Shown here: positions 3,001-53,037 of the stretch, piece by piece
Layout of the letters: each line of letters begins with the position of its first letter
Numbering within the stretch: position 1 is the first letter of the stretch
NCBI RefSeq assembly: GCF_016026235.1
Contig: NZ_CP065613.1
DNA length: 64,000 bases
Direction: 5' to 3' (one strand)
DNA from: Escherichia coli
GTDB taxonomy: Bacteria > Pseudomonadota > Gammaproteobacteria > Enterobacterales > Enterobacteriaceae
The notes under the pieces: generated by a model
Told to the model about the DNA's origin: nothing
The model's database searches: none
What the model saw: the letters and a program-made list of their open reading frames with translations, nothing else
Made by a program: the position numbers and the translations under genes

Positions 3001-3900
3001 GGGAATAGAGAACTGCCAGCCCGGATTTTCACGCGTAATATGCGCGGTCAGATTATCCACCGACAGCGTATGCGTTTGCTTCTCGCCCAACCAGCTGGCA
3101 CCGCCCTGTTTCAGCCAGACGTCACCGCCGGTTACATCGCCTTTGTCGATCGTCATCCAGCCTTCAAGGGAGAACTGTGCCGTTTCCAGCGCAATATTGT
3201 CCTGCATCCATTTACCGAGCCACGGCTTCAGGTCGATGTCATCCGCCTGGAGCCAGACGCGACCATTGCTTAACAACCCCTCATCATCGCGCAAATCCAT
3301 GCGCACCTGCATCACGCCGTGCTGTCCGGTAAGGCTGGAGAGGCTTACCAGGCCTTCCGCACGGTGTCGACGTGGATCGTTCAGCCAGGTGAGTTGTGGG
3401 ATCGCCAGCTCGGCGCGCTGACCGGATGGCGTCAGGAAACTGACTTCACTGTCGCGGAGATCGAAATGGTCAAATTGACGAAGAAACAGATCGCTGATGT
3501 GACTGGCTTCCAGACTGTCATCGCTACCACCGCTGGTGATAGGAGTGTTGGTGCGAAAGCGCAGCTGCCAGAAAGTGAGGTCGCGAAACTGCCAGCGCAT
3601 ATGTAACAGGCTCTGCCAGACATCCAGCGCCAGAGTAACGCGTTTAACCGAAAATTCGCCGCCATCTTTTAGTTCTGCACGGATGTCGTGTGCTTCAAGC
3701 GTCGGGCCAAAATTCTGCCAGCTGGCTGAGAGCTGACTGGCTTCAACCGGCATGCCAGTCGCGGATTCTATTTTGTTGAGGATTTCCGGACGCCAGGCGT
3801 CAAGATGCGGTAAAGCAATACGCAGGCCGCTAACCAGCAGGGCAGCGATCACAACGAGCGCGGCTCCAGTAAGCAGTAAAATCCCCGGCAATCGCCTCAC
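100..3900 (-). CDS. yhdP: AsmA-family inner membrane protein YhdP
   Basis: 1266 aa ORF; N-terminus MRRLPGILLLTGAALVV with a single TM segment; length and sequence match E. coli YhdP. Confidence 0.93.
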   Translation of the reverse strand: MRRLPGILLLTGAALVVIAALLVSGLRIALPHLDAWRPEILNKIESATGMPVEASQLSASWQNFGPTLEAHDIRAELKDGGEFSVKRVTLALDVWQSLLHMRWQFRDLTFWQLRFRTNTPITSGGSDDSLEASHISDLFLRQFDHFDLRDSEVSFLTPSGQRAELAIPQLTWLNDPRRHRAEGLVSLSSLTGQHGVMQVRMDLRDDEGLLSNGRVWLQADDIDLKPWLGKWMQDNIALETAQFSLEGWMTIDKGDVTGGDVWLKQGGASWLGEKQTHTLSVDNLTAHITRENPGWQFSIPDTRITMDGKPWPSGALTLAWIPEQDVGGKDNKRSDELRIRASNLELAGLEGIRPLAAKLSPALGDVWRSTQPSGKINTLALDIPLQAADKTRFQASWSDLAWKQWKLLPGAEHFSGTLSGSVENGLLTASMKQAKMPYETVFRAPLEIADGQATISWLNNDKGFQLDGRNIDVKAKAVHARGGFRYLQPANDEPWLGILAGISTDDGSQAWRYFPENLMGKDLVDYLSGAIQGGEADNATLVYGGNPQLFPYKHNEGQFEVLVPLRNAKFAFQPDWPALTNLDIELDFINDGLWMKTDGVNLGGVRASNLTAVIPDYSKEKLLIDADIKGPGKAVGPYFDETPLKDSLGATLQELQLDGDVNARLHLDIPLNGELVTAKGEVTLRNNSLFIKPLDSTLKNLSGKFSFINGDLQSEPLTASWFNQPLNVDFSTKEGAKAYQVAVNLNGNWQPAKTGVLPEAVNEALSGSVAWDGKVGIDLPYHAGATYNVELNGDLKNVSSHLPSPLAKPAGEPLAVNVKVDGNLNSFELTGQAGADNHFNSRWLLGQKLTLDRAIWAADSKTLPPLPEQSGVELNMPPMNGAEWLALFQKGAAESVGGAASFPQHITLRTPMLSLGNQQWNNLSIVSQPTANGTLVEAQGREINATLAMRNNAPWLANIKYLYYNPSMAKTRGDSTPSSPFPTTERINFRGWPDAQIRCTECWFWGQKFGRIDSDLTISGDTLTLTNGLIDTGFSRLTADGEWVNNPGNERTSLKGKLRGQKIDAAAEFFGVTTPIRQSSFNVDYDLHWRKAPWQPDEATLNGIIHTQLGKGEITEINTGHAGQLLRLLSVDALMRKLRFDFRDTFGEGFYFDSIRSTAWIKDGVMHTDDTLVDGLEADIAMKGSVNLVRRDLNMEAVVAPEISATVGVAAAFAVNPIVGAAVFAASKVLGPLWSKVSILRYHISGPLDDPQINEVLRQPRKEKAQ

Positions 3901-6028: not shown

Positions 6029-7620
<1,592 letters not shown>

Positions 7621-30067: not shown

Positions 30068-30826
30068 ATGAGCCAAATTTTACTACAACCTGCTAACGCG
30101 ATGATTACGCTGGAAAACGTCAATAAATGGTATGGACAATTCCATGTTTTGAAAAATATAAATTTAATCGTGCAACCGGGCGAACGGATCGTTCTGTGTG
30201 GCCCTTCAGGTTCCGGTAAATCGACAACCATTCGTTGTATTAATCATCTGGAAGAACATCAACAGGGACGGATCGTGGTAGATGGCATCGAACTTAATGA
30301 AGATATCCGCAATATTGAGCGCGTCCGGCAGGAAGTGGGAATGGTCTTTCAGCATTTCAATCTCTTCCCTCATCTGACCGTTCTACAGAACTGTACCCTG
30401 GCACCGATTTGGGTACGCAAGATGCCAAAGAAAGAGGCTGAAGCTCTGGCGATGCATTACCTTGAGCGGGTGAGAATTGCCGAACATGCGCATAAGTTTC
30501 CCGGACAGATTTCAGGTGGTCAGCAGCAACGCGTTGCCATTGCGCGCTCGCTGTGTATGAAGCCGAAAATTATGTTGTTTGATGAGCCCACATCGGCGCT
30601 CGATCCGGAGATGGTGAAAGAGGTGCTGGATACGATGATTGGGCTGGCGCAATCGGGTATGACAATGTTGTGTGTAACCCATGAGATGGGGTTTGCGCGA
30701 ACCGTCGCTGACCGGGTGATTTTTATGGATCGGGGCGAAATAGTGGAGCAAGCTGCACCGGATGAGTTTTTTGCGCATCCTAAGTCAGAGCGTACGAGGG
30801 CATTTTTATCGCAGGTAATCCATTAA
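30068..30826 (+). CDS. yhdZ: ABC transporter ATP-binding protein YhdZ
   Basis: 252 aa; Walker [10 protein letters not shown], signature LSGGQQQR, Walker [12 protein letters not shown]. Confidence 0.93.
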
Positions 30827-30847
30827 TTGAATGTTCGTTCGAAAAGC

Positions 30848-30875
30848 ATAAAGGCCATCCTTTCGGATGGCCTTT
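30848..30875. terminator. rrnD distal terminator (T2-like), bidirectional hairpin also placed to terminate yhdZ
   Basis: aaaggccatcctttcggatggccttt, same architecture as the rrnB T2 hairpin. Confidence 0.7.
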
Positions 30876-31010
30876 CGCTTGATTTGATGTCTGGCAGTTT
30901 ATGGCGGGCGTCCTGCCCGCCACCCTCCGGGCCGTTGCTTCGCAACATTCAAATCAGCTCCCGGCGGATTTGTCCTGGTTGGGAGAGTGTTCACCGACAA
31001 ACAACAGATA

Positions 31011-31050
31011 AAACAAAAGGCCCAGTCTTCCGACTGAGCCTTTTGTTTTA
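31011..31050 (-). terminator. rrnD T1 terminator after the distal 5S gene
   Basis: aaaacaaaaggcccagtcttccgactgagccttttgtttt hairpin immediately 3' of rrfF on the minus strand. Confidence 0.75.
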
Positions 31051-31054
31051 TTTG

Positions 31055-31174
31055 ATGTCTGGCAGTTCCCTACTCTCGCATGGGGAGACCCCACACTACC
31101 ATCGGCGCTACGGCGTTTCACTTCTGAGTTCGGCATGGGGTCAGGTGGGACCACCGCGCTACTGCCGCCAGACA
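31055..31174 (-). rRNA. rrfF: 5S rRNA, distal copy of rrnD
   Basis: Reverse complement matches the E. coli 5S sequence over 120 nt with a few substitutions. Confidence 0.93.
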
Positions 31175-31211
31175 AATTCTTTTCTAATCTGCCGAACTTT
31201 AACCTAAAAAG

Positions 31212-31287
31212 TGGTGCTGATACCCAGAGTCGAACTGGGGACCTCACCCTTACCAAGGGTGCGCTCTACCAACTGAGCCATATCAGC
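31212..31287 (-). tRNA. thrV: tRNA-Thr
   Basis: Reverse complement reads GCUGAUAUGGCUCAGUUGGUAGAGCGCACCCUUGGUAAGGGUGAGGUCCCCAGUUCGACUCUGGGUAUCAGCACCA. Confidence 0.93.
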
Positions 31288-31299
31288 ACGCTAAATTTG

Positions 31300-31419
31300 A
31301 TGCCTGGCAGTTCCCTACTCTCGCATGGGGAGACCCCACACTACCATCGGCGCTACGGCGTTTCACTTCTGAGTTCGGCATGGGGTCAGGTGGGACCACC
31401 GCGCTACGGCCGCCAGGCA
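31300..31419 (-). rRNA. rrfD: 5S rRNA, proximal copy of rrnD
   Basis: Reverse complement matches canonical E. coli 5S rRNA (UGCCUGGCGGCCGUAGCGCGG ... GCCAGGCAU). Confidence 0.95.
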
Positions 31420-31512: not shown

Positions 31513-34412
<2,900 letters not shown>

Positions 34413-34595
34413 TCACAACCCGAAGATGTTTCTTTCGATTCATCATCGTGTTGCGAAAATTTGAGAGACTCACGAACAACTTGCGTTGTTCAGTGTTTCA
34501 ATTTTCAGCTTGATCCAGATTTTTAAAGAGCAAAACTTCGCAGTGAACCTTTGCAGGTACACTCTGAAGTATTTTTTATTTAATCACTACAGAGA

Positions 34596-51054: not shown

Positions 51055-53037
<1,983 letters not shown>

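What the first reader, a model, noticed from the sequence alone, without database searches (positions are those of the whole stretch)
30840..31054. rrnD terminator region carries a short 5S 3'-end-like fragment between T1 and T2
Downstream of the distal 5S gene and the T1 hairpin, a 19-nt segment (atttgatgtctggcagtt, about 30882-30900) repeats the 3' end and flank of 5S rRNA before the T2 hairpin. This architecture parallels rrnB T1-T2 and suggests an ancestral tandem duplication of the 5S unit. It matches the known rrnD layout of two 5S genes flanking tRNA-Thr. T2 lies only 22 bp beyond the convergent yhdZ stop and probably terminates both transcripts.
Basis: partly seen in the sequence, partly recalled or inferred. 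Interest (0 to 1): 0.15.

Follow-up and report, generated by a model that had tools for sequence, protein, structure and literature searches.

The report
Known rrnD small RNA gene rrF
The short copy of the 5S rRNA end between the two rrnD terminators is real, but it is the known right-hand boundary of rrF, a published "tRNA-linked repeat" small RNA gene, so the finding is ordinary.

Summary
An exact 18-nt copy of the distal 5S end sits at 30882-30899 and at 31050-31067. It consists of 13 nt of mature 5S plus the flank CAAAT. The two copies bracket the T1 hairpin and a 108-nt body, and T2 follows; the operon is on the minus strand. This layout is already described. In E. coli, rrnA, rrnB and rrnD carry rrA, rrB and rrF between T1 and T2 (Stenum et al. 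2021, PMC8144298). These belong to the tRNA-linked repeat (TLR) family, whose hallmark is an 18-19 bp 3' end identical to the end of the upstream tRNA or rRNA gene. The window copy is 168/173 identical to K-12 rrF. Its body shows no detectable 5S similarity, but it shares a core with the tyrT RtT repeats (z about 8).

About 22 nt of the 5S end (in relatives), a helix-I-like strand and a second terminator look duplicated. The central 74 nt is a three-hairpin module shared by TLRs behind the tRNA-Tyr and tRNA-Lys genes and, apart from its first hairpin, the tRNA-Arg genes.

Extra observations: the 168-bp unit is absent from about 27% of complete E. coli genomes. The module also forms free-standing tandem arrays in Pectobacterium and Alloalcanivorax.

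The parts
31055..31174 (-). Distal 5S rRNA gene (rrfF), 120 nt. It carries the rrnD-specific helix I variant (TGTCTGG...CCAGACAT).
   Evidence: Rfam RF00001, 90.2 bits; mature ends read from the sequence; same variant in K-12 rrfF.
31050..31067 (-). Direct repeat copy 1: the last 13 nt of 5S plus the flank CAAAT. It contains the known RNase E site 3 nt after the 5S end.
   Evidence: The RNase E site is taken from PMC8144298.
31008..31051 (-). T1 intrinsic terminator hairpin (18-20 bp stem, GGAA loop, U-tract). It is leaky in rrnB (87% termination).
   Evidence: -30.9 kcal/mol, z -8.6; 9 of 18 pairs show compensatory changes in 16 homologues. Efficiency is as cited in PMC8144298.
30974..31007 (-). 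Left segment of the repeat. It includes TGTTTGTCGG (30994-31003), which can pair with the 5S-end copy like 5S helix I, and the mutated remnant (CAACCAGG) of 5S-like GAGTAGG.
   Evidence: The MFE and centroid folds close with this stem. It is 85% paired in A2, with one-sided changes only. GAG(A)GTAGG is seen in K-12 and other genera.
30900..30973 (-). 74-nt core module of the tRNA-linked repeat. Hairpin A is at 30951-30971 and hairpin B at 30933-30947. The linker GCCCGGAGGGTG is at 30921-30932 and hairpin C at 30903-30921. GGA motifs lie in loops and linker.
   Evidence: Best Rfam match is RtT RF00391, 17.2 bits, below threshold. Local alignment to tyrT units has z about 8. 13 of 21 pairs show compensatory changes across taxa. 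These hairpins correspond to stem-loops 2-4 of RrB.
30882..30899 (-). It is the 3' boundary of the repeat and the proposed second RNase E processing site.
   Evidence: The 13-nt 5S part is identical to the local 5S end in every locus where both copies were readable (22 repeat units; 21 with a true 5S end upstream, in 20 loci). The processing proposal is from PMC8144298.
30879..31051 (-). Predicted 173-nt RrF transcript. The ends are transferred from the S1-mapped ends of RrB.
   Evidence: 168/173 identical to K-12 rrF. End positions are by analogy with RrB; they were not measured for this strain.
30850..30875 (.). T2 hairpin (11-bp stem, A-tract and T-tract on both sides). It is the final rrnD terminator and a candidate bidirectional terminator for the convergent yhdZ.
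   Evidence: Terminator-like on both strands; -24.5 and -24.9 kcal/mol. It is the sole terminator in alleles lacking the repeat and follows 5S directly in rrnG.
30068..30826 (+). yhdZ (ABC transporter ATP-binding protein), convergent with rrnD.
   Evidence: ORF; annotation of matching records.

Best explanation
The flagged segment is the right-hand end of rrF. rrF is the rrnD member of the rrA/rrB/rrF small-RNA genes, and these are the rRNA-operon members of the tRNA-linked repeat (TLR) family.

Proposed mechanism, with the status of each step:
1. RNA polymerase transcribing rrnD reads through the leaky T1 hairpin in a minority of rounds and stops at T2. This was measured for rrnB and is inferred here.
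2. The read-through tail folds into three conserved hairpins carrying GGA motifs. The hairpins are closed by a stem between TGTTTGTCGG and the copied 5S end, which imitates 5S helix I. The hairpins are shown here by covariation; the closing stem is only predicted.
3. Each copy of the 5S end plus its AU-rich flank is a site where RNase E cuts. This releases 5S on one side and a roughly 173-nt RrF on the other, which is later trimmed to about 115 nt. The ends were mapped for RrB; the role of RNase E is the published authors' proposal.
4. The short-lived RNA binds Hfq and CsrA in vitro, so its level tracks rRNA synthesis. This was shown for RrB, and the phenotypes were modest.

On this reading the 5S-end copy is a processing and structure signal kept identical to the neighbouring gene. 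It is not a relic of a whole 5S gene.
For: Literature: PMC8144298 describes the layout 5S-T1-rrA/B/F-T2 and the 18-bp repeat spaced 150 bp apart. It also gives the TLR hallmark, the mapped RrB ends, Hfq and CsrA binding, and T1 87% / T2 100% termination.

- The window aligns colinearly with K-12 rrnD, rrnB and rrnA (A1) and is 168/173 identical to K-12 rrF.
- The repeat is exact and not due to chance.
- The body shares the core GTTGC..GCAACGGCCCGRAGGGTG with the tyrT RtT units: score 35 against 15.0 +/- 2.4 in shuffles, 0 of 1000 as high. RtT is the best Rfam match over its full model length.
- K-12 lys-operon and arg-operon repeats share the module from hairpin B onwards (they lack hairpin A), followed by 18 nt of their own tRNA's end.
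- The T1 stem, hairpin A and hairpin C show compensatory changes.
- The 13-nt 5S part is identical to the local 5S end in every locus where both could be read (20 loci). This includes the A variant in both copies at rrnD of E. coli and Citrobacter youngae, and G in both copies at rrnA and rrnB.
- The predicted fold closes with the helix-I-like stem.
Against: - Nothing was measured in this strain. Transcript ends, RNase E dependence and protein binding are transferred from RrB.
- The Rfam RtT match is far below the family threshold (17.2 against 45 bits).
- The window copy has five clustered substitutions relative to K-12 rrF. One of them (G to T at 30956) breaks a hairpin A pair that is kept in the other 15 sequences.
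- The helix-I-like stem shows no compensatory double changes and is partly lost in one species.
- The CAAAT flank of the copy varies between species, although it stays AU-rich.
- The unit is missing from about 27% of complete E. coli genomes and from 25 of 59 sampled rrnD ends. The published deletion phenotypes are modest, so any function is dispensable.
Confidence: 0.9

Rival explanations
1. The T1-T2 interval is a decayed third 5S gene. On this view an ancestral tandem duplication of '5S plus terminator' occurred, and the second copy degenerated except for its 3' end.
For: - T1 and T2 share 27 of 30 nt across the repeat and the hairpin base.
- In Erwinia typographi, in the two-unit locus of Enterobacterales CwR94 and after K-12 lysQ, the two terminators flanking the repeat are near-identical or identical.
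- GAG(A)GTAGG (5S 98-106) lies directly left of the module in K-12, Citrobacter, Atlantibacter and Erwinia.
- TGTTTGTCGG matches the rrfF 5' end TGTCTGGCGG at 8 of 10 positions.
- The distance from the T1 end to the copied 5S end is 121 nt, close to the 120 nt of 5S.
Against: - No 5S covariance-model hit at E<=10.
- The body aligns to 5S no better than shuffles do: 824 and 994 of 1000 shuffles score as high. Unanchored tests in seven other lineages are mostly not significant.
- The central 74 nt is a module also found in repeats behind the tRNA-Tyr and tRNA-Lys genes and, apart from hairpin A, the tRNA-Arg genes, so it cannot come from 5S.
- Similarity of the 5' strand could result from selection to pair with the same 3' strand.
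Confidence: 0.15
2. This is an origin model that can hold together with the best explanation. The 74-nt module is an insertion-prone or recombination-spread unit that landed inside a copy of the host gene's 3' end. The site is the T-loop for tRNAs and position 106/108 for 5S. The 18-nt repeat is then simply the part of that copy lying 3' of the insertion. The whole 168-bp unit is gained or lost by recombination between the repeats.
For: - Host-derived sequence flanks the module on both sides in the 5S type and the tyrT type.
- Kosakonia L046 has a full-length tRNA-Tyr-like pseudogene with the module between TTCGA and ATCC of the T-loop.
- The same module forms free-standing tandem arrays: 10.9 x 74 nt in Pectobacterium polonicum L042, and also in Alloalcanivorax and a MAG.
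- rrnG equals rrnA minus exactly the 168-bp unit.
- E. coli alleles lacking the repeat have the exact single-repeat junction.
Against: - No mobility function, transposase or integrase is associated with the module.
- The target sites in tRNA and 5S share no obvious motif.
- Loss by slippage between direct repeats explains the polymorphism without any insertion. The unit sits at the orthologous yhdZ junction in Citrobacter and Pectobacterium, so it is old there.
- I could not read Rudd 1999 or the 1980s papers, which may already describe this.
Confidence: 0.3
3. The repeat is a leftover attachment site of an integrase-type element that once integrated at the 3' end of the stable-RNA gene, as happens with tRNA-targeting islands.
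For: In tRNA-linked members the repeat runs from the T-loop (A58/A59) to CCA. From my general knowledge, this is a typical identity block for tRNA-targeting integrases.
Against: - The interval is only 150 bp and contains no integrase remnant.
- The same core sits next to at least four different host ends (5S, Tyr, Lys, Arg), which would require repeated changes of integrase specificity.
- Tandem multiplication of units, and a left arm complementary to the repeat, are not att-site features.
Confidence: 0.03
4. The repeat is a chance match or a generic similarity between terminator regions.
For: None beyond the general resemblance of intrinsic terminators to one another.
Against: No matches were found in dinucleotide-preserving shuffles. 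The repeat is conserved and tracks the local 5S end across genera.
Confidence: 0.01

Closest known systems
RrA/RrB/RrF small RNAs of E. coli rrnA, rrnB and rrnD (Stenum et al. 2021, Front Microbiol 12:625585, PMC8144298)
   Same: Same locus and layout: distal 5S, T1, body, 18-bp copy of the 5S end, T2. The window is 168/173 identical to K-12 rrF. The three conserved stem-loops and four of the five GGA motifs in the K-12 rrF body are present.
   Different: The window copy has five clustered substitutions relative to K-12 rrF, one of which breaks a conserved stem pair. Expression and binding were not measured in this strain.
tRNA-linked repeats / RtT RNA (tyrT operon rttR; Rfam RF00391; Egan & Landy 1978 and Rudd 1999, as cited in PMC8144298)
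   Same: It lies directly after a stable-RNA gene in the same operon and ends with 18-19 nt identical to that gene's 3' end. It shares hairpin B plus GGCCCGNAGGG and a following small hairpin. A left arm is complementary to the repeat.
   Different: The copied end is from 5S, not a tRNA. It scores only 17.2 bits against the Rfam model (threshold 45). It has a GGA-loop hairpin A that the lys and arg units lack. It is bracketed by terminators.
rrnB T1-T2 dual terminator (Brosius et al. 1981; used in pKK/pTrc-type vectors)
   Same: Colinear and about 93% identical over the 173-nt unit.
   Different: The rrnD copies carry CCAGACAT, whereas rrnB carries CCAGGCAT, in both the 5S end and the copy. 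T2 and its flank differ, and in rrnD T2 abuts the convergent yhdZ.
3'ETS-leuZ (sRNA released by RNase E from the glyW-cysT-leuZ tRNA precursor)
   Same: It works alike: a regulatory RNA cut out of the 3' trailer of a stable-RNA operon by RNase E.
   Different: No sequence relation. 3'ETS-leuZ acts as a base-pairing sponge for RyhB and RybB, while RrB is reported to bind CsrA and Hfq.
CsrB/RsmB-type protein-sponge RNAs (Rfam clan CL00106)
   Same: GGA motifs presented in hairpin loops, and reported CsrA binding of RrB. The tandem module arrays seen in other genera resemble multi-site sponges.
   Different: No Rfam hit at threshold (rsmX 21.7 and RsmY 16.3 bits on the Pectobacterium array). RrB has far fewer sites and a lower affinity than CsrB, according to PMC8144298.

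Membership tests
tRNA-linked repeat (TLR) family | Lies immediately downstream of a tRNA or rRNA gene within the same operon | tested here: met
   It starts right after the distal 5S of rrnD on the same strand.
tRNA-linked repeat (TLR) family | 18-19 bp at its 3' end identical to the 3' end of the upstream gene | tested here: met
   18 of 18 identical. The 13 nt of 5S proper are identical in all 20 loci where both copies were readable.
tRNA-linked repeat (TLR) family | Sequence relation to other members (the tyrT, lys and arg operon repeats) | tested here: met
   Shared core. Local alignment scores 35 against 15.0 +/- 2.4 in shuffles, 0 of 1000 as high. The core is the same in K-12 lys and arg repeats.
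rrA/rrB/rrF sRNA genes | Located between the T1 and T2 terminators at the end of an rrn operon and nearly identical to rrA/rrB/rrF | tested here: met
   A1 alignment. 97.1% identical to K-12 rrF and 93% to rrB/rrA. Within K-12, rrB against rrF is 166/173.
rrA/rrB/rrF sRNA genes | Processed transcripts of about 173 and 115 nt; binding of Hfq and CsrA | not testable with these tools
   Shown only for K-12 RrB in PMC8144298.
Rfam RF00391 RtT | Covariance-model score at or above the gathering threshold of 45 bits | tested here: not met
   17.2 bits, E 0.29, although the match spans the full model. tyrT units score 133-138 bits, and Lys-linked or Tyr-linked units in Kosakonia score 55-68 bits.
5S rRNA gene or pseudogene (RF00001) | Detectable similarity to 5S sequence and structure beyond the terminal repeat | tested here: not met
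   No RF00001 hit at E<=10 in 30830-31056. Local alignment is no better than shuffles. Only GAG(A)GTAGG in relatives and a helix-I-like strand look 5S-like.
Intrinsic (Rho-independent) terminators T1 and T2 | GC-rich hairpin followed by a U-tract | tested here: met
   Pattern scan; stable folds with z of -4.6 to -8.6; T1 stem covariation.
Intrinsic (Rho-independent) terminators T1 and T2 | Termination in vivo, including T2 acting on yhdZ transcripts | not testable with these tools
   rrnB values of 87% and 100% are cited in PMC8144298. No data were found for yhdZ.

The most novel reading that the evidence does not exclude
The interior of rrF and of other tRNA-linked repeats is one copy of a 74-nt three-hairpin, GGA-bearing RNA module. 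The same module also exists as free-standing tandem arrays: 10.9 copies ending in a terminator-like hairpin in Pectobacterium polonicum, and shorter arrays in Alloalcanivorax and a proteobacterial MAG. On this reading the module has repeatedly become embedded in duplicated 3' ends of stable-RNA genes, at the tRNA T-loop and at 5S position 106/108. The arrays would be unrecognised CsrA/RsmA-sponge-like RNAs. The 168-bp rrn unit is still being lost in E. coli by recombination between the 5S-end repeats.
Probability: 0.3. Interest if true: 0.45.

Novelty: already known. Interest (0 to 1): 0.14.

Why it matters
The finding adds nothing new. The 18-bp copy of the 5S end, the dual terminators and the RNA between them were described in 1981-2021 and studied experimentally as RrA/RrB/RrF.

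It is still worth recording for two practical reasons. First, rrF is not annotated in the RefSeq records searched, and no Rfam family reaches threshold on it, so annotation pipelines will keep reporting this stretch as unexplained. Second, the same sequence (rrnB T1-T2) sits on many expression plasmids, where it can produce an RNA that binds Hfq and CsrA.

Three side observations, if confirmed, bear on the still unknown origin and function of tRNA-linked repeats: the module shared with tRNA-linked repeats, its arrays in other genera, and the frequent loss of the unit in E. coli.

Tried and rejected
- Decayed 5S gene. Rfam scans of 30830-31056 and 30876-31016 at E<=10 gave no 5S hit. Local alignment of the body to both 5S genes was no better than shuffles. 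Unanchored tests of the left segment in eight lineages were mostly not significant.
- tRNA remnant. ARAGORN found only tRNA-Thr. A 28-nt 71% match between T1 and tRNA-Thr (family D3) was treated as chance.
- Other weak Rfam hits (Thr leader, MicC and others) only reflect the T1 terminator hairpin.
- Older papers. Bosl & Kersten 1991 could not be retrieved. Rudd 1999, Brosius 1981 and Duester & Holmes 1980 are not in the library, so statements about them rest on PMC8144298.
- Evidence for yhdZ termination at T2. The literature search found nothing.
- A misleading count. One search suggested that nearly all genomes cover 80% or more of a 601-nt query. That figure came from joining neighbouring 5S matches. 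Direct tests showed that many genomes lack the unit.
- Pectobacterium array. It gave no Rfam hit at threshold and only weak rsmX, RsmY and RtT hits, so I do not file it under any known family.

Full report
**What is in the sequence.** The window carries the distal end of an E. coli rrnD operon on the minus strand. The 23S gene ends at 31513. The proximal 5S is at 31302-31417, tRNA-Thr at 31212-31287 and the distal 5S at 31055-31174. The convergent gene yhdZ ends with TAA at 30824-30826. The closest public record, E. coli FDAARGOS_943, is 99.5% identical over a 601-nt query (window 30700-31300) and 100% identical over the repeat unit.

ATTTGATGTCTGGCAGTT occurs exactly at 30882-30899 and 31050-31067, and with one mismatch at the end of the proximal 5S. 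Shuffles gave no matches. In operon sense it reads AACTGCCAGACAT plus CAAAT, that is 13 nt of mature 5S plus 5 nt of flank. The similarity runs on to 30 nt at 90%, into the base of each terminator hairpin. T1 (31008-51) and T2 (30850-75) are strong hairpins with U-tracts, and T2 scores as terminator-like on both strands.

**What it is.** An Rfam scan of the T1-T2 interval gave no 5S hit. Its best match was RtT (RF00391), the repeat of the tyrT operon. The score was low (17.2 bits) but the match covered the full model.

The literature search then found Stenum et al. 2021 (PMC8144298), which describes the following:
- Three of the seven E. coli rrn operons (A, B, D) end in T1-sRNA-T2. The sRNA genes are rrA, rrB and rrF.
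- These genes belong to the tRNA-linked repeats (TLRs): 22 copies at ten K-12 loci, first seen in 1978.
- The family hallmark is an 18-19 bp 3' end identical to the end of the upstream tRNA or rRNA gene.
- RrB is made by read-through of T1. T1 terminates 87% of transcripts and T2 100%.
- The 5' end of RrB is the RNase E site 3 nt after 5S. Its 3' end lies 3 nt after the 18-bp repeat, giving 173 nt. A form of about 115 nt is enriched on Hfq.
- The authors propose that the repeat is the RNase E recognition element.

So the finding is the known right-hand boundary of rrF.

**Independent checks.**
- The window aligns colinearly with K-12 rrnD, rrnB and rrnA (A1). It is 168/173 identical to K-12 rrF.
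- The body is related to the tyrT units. The local score is 35 against 15.0 +/- 2.4 for shuffles, and the shared core is GTTGC..GCAACGGCCCGRAGGGTG.
- K-12 repeats in the lysT and argV-argQ operons share that core from hairpin B onwards (no hairpin A), followed by 18 nt of their own tRNA's end.
- A scan of species-representative genomes with the core found rrn-type units in Citrobacter, Salmonella, Klebsiella indica, Pectobacterium, Erwinia, Atlantibacter and others.
- In every locus where both copies could be read (20 loci), the 13-nt 5S part equals the local 5S end. rrnD of E. coli and of Citrobacter youngae has A in both copies (CCAGACAT), while rrnA and rrnB have G in both. The CAAAT flank of the second copy does vary between species.
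- T1, hairpin A and hairpin C show compensatory changes. The helix-I-like closing stem (TGTTTGTCGG with CTGCCAGACA) is predicted by folding and is 85% paired, but it shows only one-sided changes.

**The duplication idea.** The body as a whole is not a recognisable 5S. Its central 74 nt (30900-30973) is a three-hairpin module that it shares with the tRNA-linked repeats. Directly left of the module, K-12 and several genera carry GAG(A)GTAGG. This is 5S 98-106, which in 5S precedes the 13-mer with only one G in between. The window has this mutated to CAACCAGG.

The tyrT units show the same pattern: CTTCGA..AGGTTCGA, then the module, then ATCCTTCCCCCACCACCA. One Kosakonia locus has a whole tRNA-Tyr-like pseudogene with the module in its T-loop. 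After K-12 lysQ, and in Erwinia and CwR94 rrn operons, the two terminators flanking the repeat are near-identical or identical.

The reading I consider likely is therefore a copy of 'gene end plus terminator' with the module inside it.

**Polymorphism.**
- rrnG has the T2-type terminator directly after 5S. It equals rrnA minus exactly the 168-bp unit.
- The unit was found in only 3945 of 5426 complete E. coli genomes, with 1 to 9 copies and a median of 2.
- A synthetic junction lacking the repeat matched as one piece in 25 of 59 sampled chromosomes. In the other 34 it matched with a 168-bp gap. Two alleles lacking the repeat were inspected, and one junction was read base by base.
- One strain has a T1/T2 hybrid hairpin at rrnA.
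- The unit sits at the orthologous yhdZ junction in Citrobacter and Pectobacterium, so the alleles lacking it look like derived deletions between the direct repeats. The unit is clearly dispensable.

**Beyond the finding.** The same 74-nt module forms free-standing tandem arrays. Pectobacterium polonicum has 10.9 copies between eno and a TonB-dependent receptor gene, on the strand opposite eno, ending in a terminator-like hairpin. Shorter arrays occur in Alloalcanivorax xenomutans and in a MAG. No tRNA lies in the held flanks. Across these taxa, 13 of 21 stem pairs show compensatory changes (A3). The Pectobacterium array gives only weak rsmX, RsmY and RtT hits. Whether these arrays are CsrA/RsmA sponges is speculation.

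**Verdict.** The feature is already known as rrF, a tRNA-linked repeat sRNA gene, so interest is low. T2 acting on yhdZ transcripts is plausible but untested.

Noticed in passing
E. coli genome collection; L053, L054 (rrnD ends); window 30882-31049: The 168-bp unit (T1 + body + repeat) is polymorphic. It was found in 3945 of 5426 complete genomes. At rrnD, 25 of 59 sampled chromosomes have the exact junction 5S-CAAAT-T2 without it.
   Followed up: partly
L052 670-760 (E. coli Z1323PEC0010, rrnA end): A hybrid hairpin made of the T1 5' arm and the T2 3' tail. The repeat was deleted between the GGCCTTT stretches of the two terminators.
   Followed up: partly
L042 5801-6637 (Pectobacterium polonicum): 10.9 tandem copies of a 74-nt unit equal to the core module of the repeat (three hairpins, GGA in loops). 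The array lies between eno and a TonB-dependent receptor gene and ends in a terminator-like hairpin. No Rfam family reaches threshold.
   Followed up: partly
L014 ~170-330, L015 ~3540-3660, L034 ~6940-7250: The same module occurs in tandem in Alloalcanivorax xenomutans and a proteobacterial MAG, with compensatory stem changes. No tRNA or 5S gene lies in the held flanks.
   Followed up: partly
L046 6674-6819 (Kosakonia pseudosacchari): A full-length tRNA-Tyr-like pseudogene with the module inserted in the T-loop (TTCGA | module | ATCC), upstream of two intact tRNA-Tyr genes. It scores 68 bits as RtT.
   Followed up: partly
L055 1354-1580 (K-12, after lysQ): The terminal Lys-linked repeat is flanked by two identical terminators (ATGTAAAAAAGCGCCCTAAAGGCGCTTTTTTGC). 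This is the same dual-terminator layout as rrn T1-repeat-T2.
   Followed up: no
L047 242-602 (Enterobacterales bacterium CwR94): Two complete rrn-type repeat units in tandem after 5S (terminator-repeat-terminator-repeat-terminator). Hairpins A and C carry compensatory changes.
   Followed up: partly
L051 12790-12947; L021 7683-7839: A shorter 5S-linked repeat without T1 lies between 5S and tRNA-Asp in Citrobacter freundii and Atlantibacter. It has a perfect GAGAGTAGG left of the module and a near-perfect arm complementary to the 5S end.
   Followed up: partly
window 30956 and 30940-30985: The window's rrF has five clustered substitutions relative to K-12 rrF. The G to T change at 30956 breaks a hairpin A pair that is kept in the other 15 aligned sequences. 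Only one other genome (FDAARGOS_943) has this exact haplotype.
   Followed up: partly
window 31055-31174 against 31300-31419: The distal 5S differs from the proximal one by a compensatory helix I pair (C3U with G118A). The same variant is in K-12 rrfF and in Citrobacter youngae rrnD, and it is mirrored in the repeat's copy of the 5S end.
   Followed up: partly
window 30879-31051: rrF carries no annotation in the RefSeq E. coli records searched, including K-12 MG1655. No Rfam family reaches its threshold here.
   Followed up: yes
window 34420-34528 and 51379-51490: Routine Rfam hits: StyR-44 in the tRNA-23S spacer of rrnD, and the alpha-operon ribosome binding site element.
   Followed up: no
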